Assembly (NCBI GenBank): GCA_964409875.1
Contig: CAYPEN010000001.1
Coordinates: 70,362-134,361 of the forward strand
Length of the DNA stretch: 64,000 nt
From: an uncultured Gammaproteobacteria bacterium
GTDB taxonomy: Bacteria > Patescibacteriota > Microgenomatia > Levybacterales > GWA1-39-11
Reading direction: 5' to 3'
Shown piece by piece: positions 44,446 through 56,615 of the stretch (positions are counted from its first letter, which is position 1; each line of letters begins with the position of its first letter). The position numbers and the translations under genes are program-made. A model generated the notes under the pieces. It ran no database searches. It worked only from the letters and a program-made list of their open reading frames with translations, and was not told the DNA's origin.

Positions 44446-45902
<1,457 letters not shown>

Positions 45903-46034: not shown

Positions 46035-46044
46035 TGTGGAAAGA

Positions 46045-47844
46045 CTACTTATATACAACTGTTGTAATTCCAGTTTTAAAGTCTCCGGTTATTTCTGTAG
46101 TTTTGCCTGTGTATTCCCGAAAGAGAGTTGTCCTTGGAGTTTTTAGACCAACTGTCCTAGGATATGAAAAAGTTATATAGTAAGCGCCTTGAGTTAATGG
46201 TTTCCAATCGATTCCCCATTGTGCTGTCATAACAATTTGGCTGGTATAGTAGTTTATTATCTTTATTGTTGCATTCGTAGGAGGGTTTGTAACTACTCTT
46301 AAAAGTCCCATATTTGAAGGAAGTTTTGTAGGAGTTGGGGAGAGCGTTGGTGCTATCGTAGGCGTATTTGTGGGAAGAGGGGTAGGAGTATTGGTTGGTG
46401 CATTGGTTGGAGTCAGTGTTGGGAGAGGGGCCATATCAGCCATGACAGAGGAAAAAGATGATTTTTGAGTCCCGTCCGTCTTAACTATTCCAAAAGTCCC
46501 TTCGCAAAGACCGCCTGACGTTGCCTCATCCATAATTTCATAAAGAATAATTATATTAGCACTTGAAAGCTTCAGACTATTTATCGACTTTGTTAAATAA
46601 TTTGCCTGGTCAGACTCAGAATATCCGGCAGTCATCGTACATACTCCTGTTTCTGCAACTGCTACGTCTTTAGAATAACGTGCTCTCACGTCATCTACAC
46701 GTGTGCCGAGTTTGGATATCTCTGTTAAATCTGGAGCCGGATACATATCAACGGACAGTATGTCCAAGTTGTCTTTTATAGCATCGAAAAATTGGTACCA
46801 TCGGGTAATTGTCGCGTCATTCATCGGATATCCGCTGACGTTTGTTGTGACATATGTTTTTGCGTCATTTGTTTTTATCGCATTTTTTGCAACAGCAATA
46901 ACCGAGTTTAAGTCTGATAAATAAGAAGAAGTGAGCGTTGTCATCAGGGAATAATCGCGGAAATTTTGCATATCCGATTCGTTAAAAACTTGCCAAACGG
47001 CAATTTTCCCTGCCCATCTTGATGACAAATACTGATAATACTGGTCGGTAACTGTCTTATAATCATCAAGCATGTAACCTTTTGCAAATGCAGGCGTGTT
47101 AGTTACAAGGAATATTCTTAATCCCTTTTGTACTGCATAATTTATGGCCGTATCATACACTGCAAGATTTGTTGAATTCCAGGTAATTGCGTTTGATGAT
47201 AGACCTTGAACGCTTTGGACAACGGAGGTGCCGGCAGTAAGATCTGCAACGACCGTGGTAGTTTTATTTGGGTAAATTGTGGCTTGAGAAGCTGCAGGTA
47301 TTTTGACAGGTGAACCGTTTATCGTTGTATACGGATATGTGTACGAAATAGAGTACTGACCGGTTGGTAAGCTTACCCAATCAATGCTCCATGTTTTTTG
47401 TGCAACAACTTGGCCACCCTGATCTTTTACGGTTATTGTAGTTTCCACTGCAGGGTTGGTATATACCCTCAAAAGGCCTGGTCCGGGAATAGGTGTTGGG
47501 CTTGGGGTTGCAGTAGGAAGAGTGTTGGGAGTCTCTGATGCTACTTCAAAATCAATGACATTGAACCGTATCCATTTTTGTCCATTAGAAACAAGCGTAT
47601 CAACATTCTGCTTAAATTTATTGATATCCAAATTGTTATTTGCAGCAGATACATGAGTGTTAAACCCAAATTCCGTACCATTCGTAAAAGATGCATGCTG
47701 ACGGATATCTATTTGTTTTGTCGTCATGTAGAATGTTGCGCCAATAAGAAGAGCAAATACTCCGAGAAATGCAAAGAGTCTGAAGTCAGAAATATTATCC
47801 TTCAGTCTTTGTCCAAGACTTTTACTTTTAATTTCTCTTACCAT
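46045..47844 (-). CDS. secreted clan GH-A-like glycoside hydrolase with Thr/Pro linkers and beta-sandwich domains
   Basis: 599 aa. TM then QIDIRQHA motif. Central TIM-barrel-like region with acid/base AVWQVFNESD (NE) and nucleophile-like VAVAETGVC. PTP linkers. C-terminal LLRVVTNP...YYITFSYP domain (PEGA-like). Confidence 0.5.
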   Translation of the reverse strand: MVREIKSKSLGQRLKDNISDFRLFAFLGVFALLIGATFYMTTKQIDIRQHASFTNGTEFGFNTHVSAANNNLDINKFKQNVDTLVSNGQKWIRFNVIDFEVASETPNTLPTATPSPTPIPGPGLLRVYTNPAVETTITVKDQGGQVVAQKTWSIDWVSLPTGQYSISYTYPYTTINGSPVKIPAASQATIYPNKTTTVVADLTAGTSVVQSVQGLSSNAITWNSTNLAVYDTAINYAVQKGLRIFLVTNTPAFAKGYMLDDYKTVTDQYYQYLSSRWAGKIAVWQVFNESDMQNFRDYSLMTTLTSSYLSDLNSVIAVAKNAIKTNDAKTYVTTNVSGYPMNDATITRWYQFFDAIKDNLDILSVDMYPAPDLTEISKLGTRVDDVRARYSKDVAVAETGVCTMTAGYSESDQANYLTKSINSLKLSSANIIILYEIMDEATSGGLCEGTFGIVKTDGTQKSSFSSVMADMAPLPTLTPTNAPTNTPTPLPTNTPTIAPTLSPTPTKLPSNMGLLRVVTNPPTNATIKIINYYTSQIVMTAQWGIDWKPLTQGAYYITFSYPRTVGLKTPRTTLFREYTGKTTEITGDFKTGITTVVYK

Positions 47845-47906
47845 ATATTCACGCTAGCACTATTGCAGTGAGCTGTCAACGGAGTTACGGTTTTTTTGAA
47901 TTTAAA

Positions 47907-49427
47907 TTATTGATATGTTACCGAGGTTTTTCCGGTGTTAAAGTCTCCTAAAATATTTGTCGTTTTTTGTTTTACGATTTTAAAAAGCACAGTTTTCGGA
48001 AGTCTTAACCCTCCTGTTTTGGGATAAGAAAAAGTCACGTAATAATATCCGGGATCAAGTGAAGCCGATTGTATTCCTCCTGTTGCTGTAAGCACTATCT
48101 TCCCTCCTTTTTCCGATAAAATACGAATTGTTGCATTGAGTGTTGGAATAACAACAACATTAAGAATGCCTTTGTTTGTTGGTGTTGGGGTAGGTGTTGG
48201 CATAGACGTAGGTGAAGGCGTTGCTGTGGGTATCGATGTAGGGGTGAGGGTCGGAGTTGGATTAAGCGCAGTTATAACTGCTGTATAGGATGATTTTTGG
48301 GTTCCGTCTGACTTCACTATGCCATAGGAAGTATCGCAGGTGCTGCTTGAGGAATTTTGATCTACAAGTTCGTATTGCAGAAGAAGTTTTGCACTTGAAA
48401 GCCTAATATTGTTGACTGTTTGTGGGACGTAGTTTTGTTGGTCTGTCTCCGAATAAATACCGTTTTGTGTGCAAATTCCTGTTCCGGCGACAACAACATC
48501 TTTTGCATATTTTGATTTCAAACTTTCAATAATTGTACTTAATTTGCTGATTTGCCCAGCATCCGTATTCGGATACATTTCTATCGAAACAACATCTACA
48601 TTTGAATTCACTGCATCATAGAATTGATTCCAATTGGCAACAAGGGTATCTGTGAGCGGATTGCCGCCTGTTGATGTTGAGACAATTGTTGCGGGGTCTG
48701 ATGACTTTATGGCACTGTTGGCTGTAGACAGTATGGAGTTGAATTCTGAGAGATACGTTGGGTCAAGAGAAGACATTGGAGCAGCATCCCGAAAGTTTTT
48801 TATATTCGAATCAGGAAATATGTTCCAAACTGATATTTTTCCCTTGTATCTATTTGATAAAAATTGGAAATATTCTGCTGTTGCAGACTGGTAATCTGAG
48901 ACTACGTAATTGCTCGCAAAACGTGGGGTGGCAGTTGACAAGAATATTTTCAACCCATTTTGATAAGCGTAGTCAATAGCCGCATCGTATACAGAGAGAT
49001 TTGTTGTGTTCCATTGGATAAAAGTAGTAGTGCCCAACACAGTATCGGGAGGGGTCGGTGTTGGACTGACAGAAGGACTAATTGTTGTTTGTGGAATGGG
49101 TGTTGGAGTAGGACCGGGAGGTGGGGAGGCTATATCGGAAGGATTGATTGCGAGTCTTACCCACTGCTGATTGTTGTTCTTAAGCCTGTCAACACTGGTT
49201 TTGAATGTATCTAATTGGAGTGTTCCATTGACCGATAGGTCAGCCGCAAAACCGAATTCCATGCCGGTTCCGAAAGCCCTCTGCCGTATTTCTTGAGGTT
49301 TTCGCGCCATATAGAAAGTTATGCCTATAAGAAGCGTAAAAAGGGCAAGAACTAAGAATAGCTTGAAGTCAGAGATATGCTCAAGAAAATTCTTAAGAAA
49401 ACCCTTTTTCTTTATTTCTTTCACCAT
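47907..49427 (-). CDS. paralog of 46045..47844 lacking both catalytic Glu (probable non-catalytic GH-like protein)
   Basis: 506 aa. Same architecture, with motif QEIRQRA. Equivalent positions read VWNIFPDSN and VVAGTGICT (E->D and E->G). Confidence 0.5.
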   Translation of the reverse strand: MVKEIKKKGFLKNFLEHISDFKLFLVLALFTLLIGITFYMARKPQEIRQRAFGTGMEFGFAADLSVNGTLQLDTFKTSVDRLKNNNQQWVRLAINPSDIASPPPGPTPTPIPQTTISPSVSPTPTPPDTVLGTTTFIQWNTTNLSVYDAAIDYAYQNGLKIFLSTATPRFASNYVVSDYQSATAEYFQFLSNRYKGKISVWNIFPDSNIKNFRDAAPMSSLDPTYLSEFNSILSTANSAIKSSDPATIVSTSTGGNPLTDTLVANWNQFYDAVNSNVDVVSIEMYPNTDAGQISKLSTIIESLKSKYAKDVVVAGTGICTQNGIYSETDQQNYVPQTVNNIRLSSAKLLLQYELVDQNSSSSTCDTSYGIVKSDGTQKSSYTAVITALNPTPTLTPTSIPTATPSPTSMPTPTPTPTNKGILNVVVIPTLNATIRILSEKGGKIVLTATGGIQSASLDPGYYYVTFSYPKTGGLRLPKTVLFKIVKQKTTNILGDFNTGKTSVTYQ

Positions 49428-49483: not shown

Positions 49484-49798
49484 TTATTTTTTGGGGGAAA
49501 CGACGAGGCAGCAAATGGCGAGCTTACCGAGTCTTTGAGTGCATTCTTTTTTCCCTGATTCTCTTTCAACCTCTCCAAGAGGGCAATTGGCTTCAGCCCG
49601 GCATACATTCACCCGGCCATCGGGGTTATTGGGTGGACAGCCTGGGGTTTCGATTGTAGGCGTAGGTTCAAGAAAATGGTTTGAAGCTTGTTGTCGGATA
49701 TCCTGTCTTTGATTGACAAGGAACATAGTTACACTGAGGACAAATCCGATACCGGCAACGCTAAGAATTGATAATATTGAAAATTTATTGCTAGGCAT
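49484..49798 (-). CDS. small secreted Cys-containing protein with post-TM QDIRQQA motif
   Basis: 104 aa. TM, motif, then 6 Cys. Confidence 0.4.
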   Translation of the reverse strand: MPSNKFSILSILSVAGIGFVLSVTMFLVNQRQDIRQQASNHFLEPTPTIETPGCPPNNPDGRVNVCRAEANCPLGEVERESGKKECTQRLGKLAICCLVVSPKK

Positions 49799-50912: not shown

Positions 50913-50953
50913 ATTGAAGATATTTTTGATACTCCTTTTCACCGAAGGTATTG

Positions 50954-51025
50954 TGGGTGATAAAGGAGTCGGACCTTTGACCTCGTTCTTATCAGGAACG
51001 CGCTCTACCGTTGAGCCAATCACCC
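50954..51025 (-). tRNA. tRNA-Ile (anticodon GAU)
   Basis: Manual fold. Acceptor GGGTGAT/ATCACCC. D-arm GCTC/GAGC. Anticodon stem CGTTC/GAACG with loop CTGATAA. T-arm AAAGG-TCCGACT-CCTTT. Confidence 0.8.
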
Positions 51026-51127
51026 TAATTTTGATTGGTAAAACGGCAAACTTGTTTACCGTTGAGCCAATCACCCTAATTTTGATTGGTAAAACGGCAA
51101 ACTTGTTTACCGTTGAGCCAATCACCC
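51007..51127. repeat. tandem repeat, 51-nt unit x ~2.4, each unit starting with the first 19 nt of tRNA-Ile
   Basis: accgttgagccaatcaccc + taattttgattggtaaaacggcaaacttgttt repeated. Units contain two inverted repeats (ccaatca/tgattgg; aacggtaaac/gtttgccgtt). Confidence 0.85.
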
Positions 51128-51962: not shown

Positions 51963-53054
51963 CTACAGAACTAGCAAAAATATTCCTCCCAGGATTACTA
52001 TTATTGCCCCACCAATAATTCCAATTGTTTGAGCCATACCGCCCGGTTTTGCTATGGTCGGTGTAGCCGTCGGCGGAATTGGTGTTGCTGTTGCGGTCGG
52101 TACAACTGTAGCAGTTGCGGTGGGTTGCAAGGATGGGGTGGGGGTCTGAGTTGGTGAAATAGTAGCAGTGGGGGTGCTGGTGGGTGTCGGAGATGGAGTT
52201 AAGGTTGCTGTTGGCGTTGGTGTATAGGTAGCAGTAGGAGTGGGGGTGTTGGTGGGAGTTGCAGTGGGGGTATTAGTTGGGGTGGATGTCGTAGTATTTG
52301 TAGGGCTAACAGAAGTTGTTATTGTTGCTGATGGCGTTGCCGTTATTGTTACTGACGGTGTTGTTGTTGCGGTGGGGGTAGCAGTTGGTGTAATTTCCGC
52401 GTCAAGTACAGAACCAAAATCAGTCGTCCAGTACCAATTCTGGTCGTGCGTTGATTGGACGCGCGCAATGCCAATTGCAACAGCTTGCGCGTCTTTCATT
52501 TGCTCCCTGTGGGCATACGTACAGTTATTTCCATTCGCATCCCCGTCGCATCCGTTTTTCCACGCATCGAATGCACTTTGTCCGGTTGGCCCTACCCAAG
52601 CAATATTTTCTGCAATATGGGGAGCGCTATAGCCAAATGAGGGGATTCTTGTATTAATATTTCTGCCTTTCGAATCCACATGGTCTAAGTGTCCTGAAAC
52701 TGCCATGTCATTCGACATCCAGTCGGCCGATTCCGTAAGCTTTACGGAAATTTTCAAAGGGGATAGTCCAAATGTGGCACGGTAATCATTAATCAGTTTT
52801 AAAAAATTCCACTCTTCAGTGTCTATGTCTTTAGTTGAAGTTGTGGTAGTAGTTGAAGGAGTAGTGGTATCATTTCCGCTTGCACGTTGTCTGTTATCTT
52901 GCTGTTGTTTGATAAGAATTGTTGTGATAATAAGAGCTACCAAGACAAAAGTAATTGCACCGATGAGAACGAATTTTTTCTGCACAGTTAATATTACCTT
53001 TTGAACCTTTATAAACGCAATACTGATAGCATTCCGCTTCAAATTTTGATACAC
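51963..53054 (-). CDS. secreted CAP/SCP (PR-1-like) domain protein with Thr/Pro linker and C-terminal hydrophobic tail
   Basis: 363 aa. TM then QQQDNRQRA motif. CAP-like core ([10 protein letters not shown]...[11 protein letters not shown]...AWKNGCDGD). Long TPT repeat. Ends KPGG + 22 hydrophobic residues. Confidence 0.55.
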
Positions 53055-53846: not shown

Positions 53847-54215
53847 CTAACGCCGTGTACGAATTCCCTTCACTTTTGTTAGAGGTTTTACCGGATTCTC
53901 GCTTATTGTTGGGGTTGGGGTTGGAGATGCAACAGTTGGCGTTGGTGTTGGAACAGTGGAGGTTGGCAAAACTATTGTCGGAGTAGGCTCGGAAGCTTTT
54001 TGACGTGTGTCTTGTTGCTGGCTTAACTGTTGAATAGTGATTGGGAGAATAAGAAGCGCAATTGCAAAAGCACCAACAGGGATAAGTCCTGTGTAATTTC
54101 TCCCTTTTTTTGGTATTTTTGCTCCACCGCCTGGGATCGGATTTTGAAATGTATCATTCAGTCCAATTTTTGGGGCAAGTGGTCCCTGGAACGAATTTTG
54201 TGGTATTTCTGCCAT
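53847..54215 (-). CDS. small secreted Thr/Pro-rich protein with post-TM QQQDTRQKA motif
   Basis: 122 aa. TM, motif, PTPT linker, basic C-terminus. Confidence 0.4.
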   Translation of the reverse strand: MAEIPQNSFQGPLAPKIGLNDTFQNPIPGGGAKIPKKGRNYTGLIPVGAFAIALLILPITIQQLSQQQDTRQKASEPTPTIVLPTSTVPTPTPTVASPTPTPTISENPVKPLTKVKGIRTRR

Positions 54216-55046: not shown

Positions 55047-56615
55047 CTAGTCTCCATTTCTATTTATCGTGTTATATTGCATGATATTAATGTCATCATT
55101 ATCTTCCGTAGTTACTCCGTCATCATCCAGGTCTCCAAGGATTGCAATATCCCCTGTACAAGCAGTTTGATGGTTAAAGCAGGCCATAACATTCGTAAAG
55201 TCTTGTATATCAAGGGCGTTATTTTGGTCAAGGTCTCCAGTTACAAGTTCTACGACCGGTGTTGCATTGTCCTGCTTTGTCTGGTCGATATGCACTATTC
55301 CGGGAAGTCTTTTCTTTAGAGTGTTGTCCATCCGTACTTTTACTACATAATTGCCGGTCGGTAACGTGGTTCCTATTCCGACACTCCCTTCGTATTGGGC
55401 GGTAGCTGGGTTGAAATCAACAGTGCCCGTCTTTTCTGAGATCTTTGCGGATTCAGAAGACGTACTATCATATACAGACACTTTTACCGTTCTTCTGGTT
55501 CTTACCGGATGGTCATTCTCGCCATTCTTCTTGCTGATACCCGGAAGCTTTAGTGAAAGCTTCAGGCCTGTTTCTCCAGCTGCAAGGGTTACTGTCGGGA
55601 TTTGGGTTGGAGTGACCGTTGAAGTGACGGTTGTTGTGACTGTCGTTGTAACAGTCGTAGTAGTAGTAACTGTAGGAGAATTTGAGTTGCCATTCATATT
55701 GTATGTGCTCTTGTAACATTTAGATGCAACACCATTGTATGTAGTGCAGTCTGCGTTGCCGGCTGCTATTTCTGACCATCCGGATGGTACTGTTTGGGTT
55801 GTAGGGAGACAGTAGTTAATTGAACCATCCGTTTGGACTGTCGGGCAGCCATTATTGGTTCCGCTTGTTCTCTGGTATCCATTAGCGGCCGTGCAAACTC
55901 TTGCCGAAGCTCCGAGATATGTGGAACAATCTGTCTGTGTTGCTGTTTCACCAAGAGCCGTCTCGCAGGCCTCGCCTGTCGGCCTACAGTGATTCTTACC
56001 GTTATTGTAGTCAAAAGATGTATTGTTATTATCGTTGCTTCCCTGACTGCCACCCAGTGTAAAGCTCGCCTTTATGTTGTCTTTGTTATCAACATTAACG
56101 TAGGTACTAATTAATTGTGAGGTTGCTTGAAGGGAGGCTGGGTCGATAGAAACAGTAGCTGTACCGTTTTTTAATGCCTTGAATTTAAATGTGAAAACCT
56201 TCAAGTTATTTCCCATGACGGGGGTAACATTAGGGTTTATCATGACGACTTCAAAAGTTCCATTTTCATTTGATTTTTGTATTGCTTGTAGATTTGTGGA
56301 TTGGGAAGCCTCACTTACTTCAAGTAATGTTCGGTCGTAGAGCAATTTAAAATGAAGGGCACCCACGTCATTTGTTGCTGCGTTCATTATAAGGTCGACA
56401 TTTTGTGCCTGACCTACGGCTATATTGCCTGTTGCAGGAGAAAAATTGAATGTTATTGAAGGAGCAGTATCTGCCCGTTGCCGTAGGTCTTGCTGTTTAA
56501 GCACTTGATTTATGACAAAAGGAAGCGAGAGTGCCGCGATAGCCACAATTCCGGCAATAAGTTTTGGGCGATGGTTTGTGGCAAGCAATTTTAGCTTTGA
56601 GATAAATGGTTTCAT
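55047..56615 (-). CDS. scaffoldin-like protein: cohesin-like N-domain, Cys-rich module, Thr-rich linker, C-terminal dockerin-like repeat pair
   Basis: 522 aa. TM then QQDLRQRA. GALHFKLLYDRTLLEV cohesin-like domain. TVTTT repeats. C-terminal GDLDQNNALDIQDF and GDLDDDGVTTEDNDDINIMQ (DxDxDG Ca-loop pairs). Confidence 0.45.
   Translation of the reverse strand: MKPFISKLKLLATNHRPKLIAGIVAIAALSLPFVINQVLKQQDLRQRADTAPSITFNFSPATGNIAVGQAQNVDLIMNAATNDVGALHFKLLYDRTLLEVSEASQSTNLQAIQKSNENGTFEVVMINPNVTPVMGNNLKVFTFKFKALKNGTATVSIDPASLQATSQLISTYVNVDNKDNIKASFTLGGSQGSNDNNNTSFDYNNGKNHCRPTGEACETALGETATQTDCSTYLGASARVCTAANGYQRTSGTNNGCPTVQTDGSINYCLPTTQTVPSGWSEIAAGNADCTTYNGVASKCYKSTYNMNGNSNSPTVTTTTTVTTTVTTTVTSTVTPTQIPTVTLAAGETGLKLSLKLPGISKKNGENDHPVRTRRTVKVSVYDSTSSESAKISEKTGTVDFNPATAQYEGSVGIGTTLPTGNYVVKVRMDNTLKKRLPGIVHIDQTKQDNATPVVELVTGDLDQNNALDIQDFTNVMACFNHQTACTGDIAILGDLDDDGVTTEDNDDINIMQYNTINRNGD

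What the first reader, a model, noticed from the sequence alone, without database searches (positions are those of the whole stretch)
46045..49427. Tandem GH-like paralogs; the second has lost both catalytic glutamates
- The two adjacent genes share their full architecture: TM + motif, a TIM-barrel-like GH core, PTP linkers and a C-terminal beta-sandwich.
- 46045..47844 keeps a clan GH-A style acid/base (VWQVFNESD) and a nucleophile-like AVAETGV.
- 47907..49427 reads VWNIFPDSN and VVAGTGI at the same positions.
- This points to a catalytically dead paralog retained as a binding module, or a lectin-like partner, next to the active enzyme.
Basis: partly seen in the sequence, partly recalled or inferred. 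Interest (0 to 1): 0.55.

Follow-up and report, generated by a model that had tools for sequence, protein, structure and literature searches.

The report
Active glycosidase beside its dead paralog
Two neighbouring genes of an uncultured ultra-small (CPR/Microgenomates-like) bacterium encode related surface sugar-cutting enzymes, and the upstream copy has lost exactly the two residues needed for cutting while the rest is preserved: a well-known kind of "dead enzyme", here in an uncharacterised enzyme family.

Summary
Window 46045..47844(-) (A, 599 aa) and 47907..49427(-) (B, 506 aa) are tandem paralogs, 47% identical. Each has an N-terminal membrane helix, a (β/α)8 barrel, Pro/Thr linkers and a C-terminal β-sandwich.

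A has Asn288-Glu289 after strand β4 and Glu398 on β7. These align with the catalytic motifs of GH1, GH10 and GH53, and about 172 of 180 relatives keep them. B has Pro205-Asp206 and Gly315.

Twelve columns are invariant in 37 relatives outside B's clade. B differs only at the two catalytic ones.

B is not a decaying gene. It has an intact ORF, a confident fold and orthologs in other genomes, and pN 0.18–0.29 is well below the saturated pS of about 0.75. It does evolve about 3.4 times faster than A.

Two corrections:
- A carries an extra β-sandwich inserted inside the barrel, so the architectures are not identical.
- A relative with 96.4% 16S identity keeps only the dead copy at this locus, so an adjacent active partner is not required.

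A glycan-binding role for B is inferred, not shown.

The parts
46045..47844 (-). Gene A, 599 aa: membrane-anchored or secreted clan GH-A glycosidase with intact catalytic residues
   Evidence: ORF; Pfam GH53 30 bits, partial; AlphaFold pLDDT 84.9; Foldseek matches to GH-A enzymes
47725..47781 (-). A: N-terminal hydrophobic helix (residues 22-40), preceded by a Lys/Arg-rich N-terminus
   Evidence: sequence; helix 10-50 in the model
47689..47718 (-). A: post-helix motif KQIDIRQHAS
   Evidence: motif scans
47533..47682 (-). A: first barrel segment, β1-α1-β2 (residues 55-104), including conserved R93
   Evidence: model strands 58-62 and 91-95; alignment
47206..47532 (-). A: Pro/Thr linker (residues 105-120) plus the β-sandwich (121-213) inserted inside the barrel; the sandwich is a duplicate of A's own C-terminal sandwich
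   Evidence: model; 36% identity to the C-terminal sandwich, E 4e-11; present throughout the A-type clade
46432..47199 (-). A: second barrel segment, β3-β8 (residues 216-471)
46978..46983 (-). A: codons for Asn288-Glu289 (acid/base, end of β4)
46651..46653 (-). A: codon for Glu398 (nucleophile, β7)
46048..46431 (-). A: Pro/Thr linker (residues 472-509) and C-terminal β-sandwich (510-599)
   Evidence: linker pLDDT <50, sandwich pLDDT >90
47845..47906 (-). 62-nt B-A spacer with no terminator-like hairpin; it contains a TTGACA. Co-transcription is plausible but not shown
47907..49427 (-). Gene B, 506 aa: paralog lacking both catalytic glutamates (pseudo-glycosidase)
49275..49364 (-). B: hydrophobic helix (residues 22-40) and motif KPQEIRQRA (43-51)
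49128..49268 (-). B: first barrel segment (residues 54-100); R91 is kept
49023..49127 (-). B: disordered Pro/Thr loop (residues 101-135) at the site where A carries the inserted sandwich
   Evidence: pLDDT <50 for residues 116-133
48264..49022 (-). B: second barrel segment (residues 136-388)
48810..48815 (-). B: codons for Pro205-Asp206, replacing Asn-Glu
48483..48485 (-). B: codon for Gly315, replacing the nucleophile Glu
47910..48263 (-). B: Pro/Thr linker (residues 389-417) and C-terminal β-sandwich (418-506), 50% identical to A's

Best explanation
A and B are tandem paralogs of an uncharacterised family within glycoside hydrolase clan GH-A. Both are exported or anchored by an N-terminal helix. 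The Lys/Arg-rich N-terminus suggests N-in, C-out topology (inferred). Each displays a (β/α)8 barrel and a β-sandwich on flexible Pro/Thr linkers outside the cell. A keeps the Asn-Glu (β4) and Glu (β7) pair of retaining GH-A enzymes, so it is most likely an active retaining β-glycanase; its substrate is unknown. B has Pro-Asp and Gly at these positions. It therefore cannot form the covalent glycosyl-enzyme intermediate and is a pseudo-glycosidase. B is maintained by purifying selection, with fold and core residues intact. The changes at conserved positions that were picked out lie on or next to the catalytic strands β4, β6 and β7. The loss was stepwise within the short-type clade: ND/E, then NN/D, then PD/G or GN/A. 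The most likely role of B is a non-catalytic, surface-displayed glycan-binding protein that functions on its own, not as an obligate partner of A. Shown: paralogy, fold, catalytic positions, their loss, retention of the gene, faster evolution, and occurrence without A. Inferred: topology, A's activity, and B's binding function.
Against: No binding or activity data exist. The substrate is unknown, so 'glycan-binding' is extrapolated from other GH-derived pseudoenzymes. dS is saturated, so dN/dS is only bounded, not measured. Several cleft-lining conserved residues on β4 and β6 also changed in B, which could mean binding was lost or altered as well. The L001 contig carries homopolymer frameshifts in the B ortholog and also in both neighbouring genes. 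They are most simply sequencing errors, but pseudogenisation there cannot be excluded. Whether L001's genome has an active paralog elsewhere is unknown. The tree is neighbour-joining on 19 sequences without support values.
Confidence: 0.6

Rival explanations
1. B is a non-functional relic on its way to loss. Its catalytic residues went first because A made it redundant.
For: B evolves about 3.4 times faster than A at non-synonymous sites for the same locus pair. The residues at the dead positions differ between orthologs (PD/G, GN/A, NN/D), as expected without constraint there. The L001 ortholog has three frameshifts.
Against: B is an intact 506-codon ORF. Orthologs at 57-73% identity are still full-length and keep all non-catalytic invariant residues. 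pN is well below pS. The fold is predicted confidently. The dead copy is the only copy at the locus in L001. The L001 frameshifts also hit the two neighbouring genes, which points to sequencing error.
Confidence: 0.12
2. B is still catalytic by a non-canonical route. Possibilities are Asp206 as general acid with an exogenous or substrate-borne nucleophile (phosphorylase-like or substrate-assisted), or a nucleophile relocated to Glu283 on β6.
For: The three proteins with no carboxylate on β7 (B, L008B, P0021) all have Glu instead of the family's 95%-conserved Asp on β6. B and L008B keep an Asp at the acid/base site. From general knowledge, GH-A-like barrels without a protein nucleophile exist, for example GH112 phosphorylases, and myrosinases lack the acid/base.
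Against: P0021 has Asn at the acid/base site and Ala at the nucleophile site, so no shared catalytic set exists within the clade. The β6 Glu traces to a single ancestral event in three sequences. The protein is predicted to be extracellular, where phosphorolysis is unlikely. No model coordinates were available to check geometry.
Confidence: 0.07
3. B works only together with A, for example as a heterodimer partner that supplies substrate binding, or as a decoy that absorbs an inhibitor aimed at A.
For: B and A lie in tandem on the same strand, 62 nt apart, with no terminator-like hairpin between them. The tandem is conserved in L008. From my own knowledge, an adjacent inactive GH12 paralog acts as a decoy in Phytophthora sojae (PsXLP1/PsXEG1).
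Against: L001 (16S 96.4% identical) has the dead copy without A at this locus. P0009 (NN/D) is followed by only about 157 nt of contig, so an A copy downstream of it cannot be excluded. Only 2 of 29 loci examined (the window plus 28 others) show the dead+active tandem. There is no evidence of an interface.
Confidence: 0.15

Closest known systems
Clan GH-A retaining glycoside hydrolases (GH53 β-1,4-galactanases, GH10 xylanases, GH1 β-glucosidases, GH5)
   Same: (β/α)8 barrel; Asn-Glu at the end of β4 and Glu on β7 in A. Profile alignments place these on the canonical motifs.
   Different: No family is favoured. Identity to solved structures is 8-19%. The Pfam GH53 match covers only profile positions 154-274 of 340, and members also hit GH42, GH5 and Glyco_hydro_cc. 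The barrel is interrupted after β2 by a Pro/Thr loop or a whole domain. B lacks the catalytic pair.
PslG of Pseudomonas aeruginosa (GH39-like exopolysaccharide hydrolase)
   Different: Sequence similarity is only partial (E 1.9e-7 over the N-terminal third). The sandwich here is tethered by a long disordered linker. The glycosyltransferase genes lie across a 16S rRNA gene, so no operon link is shown.
Glycoside-hydrolase-derived pseudoenzymes: α/β-Klotho (GH1), GH18 chi-lectins, beetle GH28 pseudoenzymes
   Different: Different GH families and organisms. Those proteins have experimentally shown non-catalytic roles, whereas none is shown for B.
GH148 EngU (clan GH-A β-glucanase with a CBM4 inserted in the catalytic module)
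   Same: A GH-A barrel interrupted by a β-sandwich module (PMC5725463), as in A.
   Different: In EngU the insert lies between the acid/base and the nucleophile and has no linkers. In A it lies before β3, is flanked by a Pro/Thr linker, and is a duplicate of the protein's own C-terminal domain. Family membership was not tested because no EngU sequence was available.

Membership tests
Clan GH-A (4/7 superfamily) | (β/α)8 barrel fold | tested here: met
Clan GH-A (4/7 superfamily) | Acid/base Glu (usually Asn-Glu) at the C-terminal end of β4 | tested here: met
   Met for A (N288-E289). Not met for B (P205-D206).
Clan GH-A (4/7 superfamily) | Nucleophile Glu at the C-terminal end of β7 | tested here: met
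   Met for A (E398 in strand 394-399). Not met for B (G315).
GH53 (endo-β-1,4-galactanase) | Full-length match to the family profile that is better than matches to other GH-A families | tested here: not met
   PF07745 scores 30 and 26.6 bits (cutoff 24) but covers only about a third of the profile. The family profile hits GH1, PslG and GH10 as well as or better than GH53. Structural scores do not favour GH53.
GH53 (endo-β-1,4-galactanase) | β-1,4-galactanase activity | not testable with these tools
   Requires an enzyme assay.
GH-derived pseudoenzyme | Homology to an active enzyme family with loss of essential catalytic residues | tested here: met
GH-derived pseudoenzyme | Gene maintained by selection rather than decaying | tested here: inconclusive
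   Intact ORF, conserved orthologs, and pN 0.18-0.29 against pS about 0.75. However, dS is saturated, so no dN/dS value could be obtained. The L001 ortholog has frameshifts that are probably sequencing errors.
GH-derived pseudoenzyme | A demonstrated non-catalytic function, such as ligand binding | not testable with these tools
   Needs binding assays or genetics.
PslG-like exopolysaccharide-locus hydrolase | Encoded within a polysaccharide biosynthesis operon | tested here: inconclusive
   GT87 and Acyl_transf_3 genes lie 2-7 kb away but beyond the 16S gene and in other orientations. Wzy_C is adjacent in L005.

The most novel reading that the evidence does not exclude
The B lineage has not simply died but has re-tooled its active site. 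The three proteins that lack any carboxylate on β7 (B, L008B, P0021) share a Glu in place of the family's conserved Asp on β6. This could act as a relocated nucleophile or support a different chemistry, such as a transglycosylase or phosphorylase-like reaction, on a different substrate. A milder variant of this reading is that B is a stand-alone host- or glycan-recognition adhesin of an episymbiotic CPR bacterium.
Probability: 0.06. Interest if true: 0.75.

Novelty: new member of a known kind. Interest (0 to 1): 0.4.

Why it matters
CPR/Patescibacteria live attached to other cells, and their surface proteins are almost entirely uncharacterised. This locus offers three things. First, it is a natural active/inactive pair in an unclassified GH-A family of at least about 150 clusters at 50% identity. 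Second, orthologs show a visible stepwise path of active-site erosion. Third, close relatives keep both copies, only the active one or only the dead one. That makes it a tidy system for asking what a pseudo-glycosidase does at a bacterial surface. The concept itself, a duplicated glycosidase losing its catalytic residues, is well established elsewhere, so the finding extends known biology and does not overturn it.

Tried and rejected
- dN/dS (Nei-Gojobori) for A/B, A/P0002, B/L008B, B/P0021 and L008B/P0021. Synonymous sites were saturated in all pairs (pS 0.73-0.81), so only pN and dN are usable.
- Single-sequence search of A against PDB sequences found nothing meaningful. Profiles were needed.
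- NCBIfam gave no meaningful hit for either protein.
- Pfam on the isolated β-sandwiches gave only FlgD_ig at E 0.014 for the inserted one, so the domain type is unassigned.
- The word-indexed homolog search with B's core returned a single protein.
- The first metagenome scan, using the B-clade alignment, confirmed no locus. The second scan returned only more distant, catalytically intact relatives.
- The afdb50 fold library was unavailable.
- Literature searches found no description of this family in CPR bacteria or of the N-terminal motif.
- GH53 membership was considered and rejected (see the membership test).
- Pseudogenisation of the L001 ortholog was considered. It is judged less likely than sequencing error, because both neighbouring genes are also frameshifted.
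Full report
**The observation.** Window 46045..47844(-) encodes A (599 aa) and 47907..49427(-) encodes B (506 aa). The two genes are separated by 62 nt, with no terminator-like hairpin between them. BLASTP gives 47% identity over 380 residues (E 6e-122) and 46% over the N-terminal 103 residues. The quoted peptides are present and aligned. A has VWQVFNESD (N288-E289) and VAVAETG (E398). B has VWNIFPDSN (P205-D206) and VVVAGTG (G315).

**Fold.**
- AlphaFold2 models built on a 41-sequence alignment are confident (A pLDDT 84.9, B 86.9). Each shows eight β/α units, disordered Pro/Thr linkers and a C-terminal β-sandwich.
- Foldseek for A matches GH2, GH1, GH10, GH53, GH39 (PslG) and GH158 structures at E about 1e-10 to 1e-12 and 9-19% identity.
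- The core is therefore a clan GH-A barrel, but no family stands out.
- Pfam agrees. GH53 scores only 30 and 26.6 bits and covers profile positions 154-274 of 340. Across 41 members, GH53, Glyco_hydro_cc, GH42 and GH5 all give weak hits.
- An exhaustive profile search finds 152 clusters (at 50% identity) with E ≤ 1e-30 and 272 with E ≤ 1e-10. This is a sizeable, unnamed GH-A family.
- The few named members come from a Ca. Levyibacteriota MAG, Arthrobacter, Arsenicicoccus and a Planctomycetales MAG.

**Catalytic positions.**
- In the models, N288-E289 follows β4 (strand 283-285) and E398 sits in β7 (strand 394-399).
- Family profiles align these residues with GH10 WDVVNE and ITELD and with the GH53 nucleophile, and with GH1 TFNEP and ITENG.
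- In an hmmalign of 191 sequences, about 172 of the ~180 that cover both positions keep Glu at both. The nucleophile is missing only in B's clade.
- Of 12 columns that are 100% invariant in 37 non-B-clade sequences, B differs only at the two catalytic ones.
- Of 49 columns conserved at 85% or more, B keeps 38. The 11 changes include Q285N, E289D, D291N (β4), D366E (β6) and E398G (β7).

**Architecture: a correction.**
- The barrel is split. β1-α1-β2 (A residues 55-104) is separated from β3-β8 (residues 216-471).
- In B the gap is a 35-residue disordered Pro/Thr loop.
- In A and all A-type orthologs the gap holds a Pro/Thr linker plus a 93-residue β-sandwich.
- That inserted sandwich is 36% identical (E 4e-11) to A's own C-terminal sandwich, so it arose by internal duplication.
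- Stand-alone relatives of about 360 aa have an uninterrupted barrel.
- A domain inserted into a GH-A barrel has a precedent in GH148 EngU, although at a different site.

**Evolution of the pair.** A neighbour-joining tree of the cores separates two clades.
- The A-type clade contains A and P0002-P0006. All have the insert and all have NE/E.
- The short clade is (P0007, P0008: NE/E), (P0011: ND/E; P0009: NN/D), (L008B: PD/G; P0021: GN/A; B: PD/G). Catalytic residues were therefore lost stepwise within one lineage.

The locus is syntenic across relatives: CAP-domain protein, dCTP deaminase, tRNA-Ile, optionally DUF5667 and a small Cys-rich protein, then the GH gene, then a convergent 16S rRNA gene. 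What varies is the GH content.

| Locus | Relatedness to the window | GH genes at the locus |
|---|---|---|
| L003 | dCTP deaminase 95% identical | only an active short copy |
| L007 | 16S 94.5% identical | only an A-type copy |
| L015 | dCTP deaminase 89% identical | only an A-type copy |
| L002 | dCTP deaminase 88% identical | only ND/E (P0011) |
| L001 | 16S 96.4% identical | only the dead GN/A copy |
| Window and L008 | – | dead copy followed by active copy |

L001 is colinear with the window except that exactly window 46037-47906 (A plus the spacer) is absent. Of 29 loci examined (the window plus 28 others), only the window and L008 carry the dead+active tandem. L025 carries two active copies.

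**Selection.**
- Synonymous sites are saturated in every pair (pS 0.73-0.81), so dN/dS cannot be estimated.
- pN for B is 0.18 (against P0021) and 0.29 (against L008B), far below pS.
- For the same locus pair, dN is 0.362 for B/L008B and 0.108 for A/P0002, so B evolves about 3.4 times faster.
- Against L001, B is 71-73% identical. The adjacent DUF5667 and small-protein genes are 76-82% identical. B is thus about as constrained as its neighbouring surface-protein genes.
- The L001 ortholog has three homopolymer-associated frameshifts. Both neighbours are also frameshifted, which points to sequencing error.

**Interpretation.**
- A is most likely an active, retaining, surface-exposed β-glycanase of unknown specificity.
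- B cannot carry out the canonical double-displacement reaction and is a retained pseudo-glycosidase.
- The most plausible role for B is non-catalytic glycan binding. This is an inference by analogy with Klotho, chi-lectins and GH28 pseudoenzymes (PMC6549527).
- An obligate partnership with A is unlikely, given L001.
- Rival explanations are a decaying relic (0.12), non-canonical catalysis (0.07) and an A-dependent partner or decoy (0.15).
- One unexplained detail: the three proteins without a β7 carboxylate all have Glu instead of Asp on β6.

**Verdict.** This is a new member of a known kind: a glycosidase-derived pseudoenzyme in an unclassified GH-A family from a CPR-like genome. Interest is moderate.

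Noticed in passing
window 47689-47718, 49275-49301, 49484-49798, 51963-53054, 53847-54215, 55047-56615 (all minus strand); also L002, L003, L005, L007, L014, L015: A motif [LV]xx[QK]xQ[DE]xRQ[RQHN]A[SF] lies directly after an N-terminal hydrophobic helix. It occurs in six window ORFs of unrelated families (GH, CAP-domain, small Cys-rich and others) and in about 20 ORFs of related CPR loci. It is absent from distant-homolog loci, and the loose regex matches only 4 times in 55,545 residues outside N-termini. No Pfam or NCBIfam model covers it. In P0015 an ordinary signal-peptide cleavage site aligns at this position. It is probably a lineage-specific signal-peptide or sorting motif.
   Followed up: partly
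window 47206-47532 (A residues 105-213) and 49023-49127 (B residues 101-135): The TIM barrel is interrupted after β2. In B the interruption is a disordered Pro/Thr loop. In A it is a whole β-sandwich that duplicates the protein's own C-terminal domain. Non-CPR relatives have an uninterrupted barrel.
   Followed up: yes
window 49484-49798 (-): A 104-aa protein (helix, motif, PT stretch and a six-Cys C-terminal domain) lies immediately upstream of the short-type GH gene in the window, L001, L003/L004 and L014 (59-82% identical). It has no family match. It may be functionally linked to the short-type GH.
   Followed up: partly
window 51006-51127: A perfect 51-bp tandem repeat (2.4 copies, 100% identical) begins inside the 5' 20 nt of tRNA-Ile (50953-51025, minus strand) and extends upstream. 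It therefore repeats the tRNA 5' end plus its upstream region. It could be a real duplication or an assembly artefact.
   Followed up: no
window 44446-45901 (+): A complete 16S rRNA gene lies convergent to gene A, with protein-coding genes (not 23S) following it within the window, so the 16S appears unlinked from 23S. The related locus L007 has a LAGLIDADG ORF interrupting its 16S.
   Followed up: partly
L001 1650-3180: The JGI contig carrying the B ortholog P0021 has frameshifts at or near homopolymer runs in three adjacent genes. Its gene calls are therefore truncated: P0021 was called as 413 aa, but the reading frame can be followed for about 506 aa.
   Followed up: yes
L025 341-2564: A distant relative carries two tandem copies of this GH family, both with NE/E. 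Tandem duplication thus recurs in the family without loss of catalytic residues.
   Followed up: no
L005/L009 (GCA_964557125.1, contig CAZKYX010000001.1): This MAG is titled 'uncultured Gammaproteobacteria', yet its locus is syntenic with the window and carries the same N-terminal motif proteins. The taxonomic label is probably wrong.
   Followed up: no
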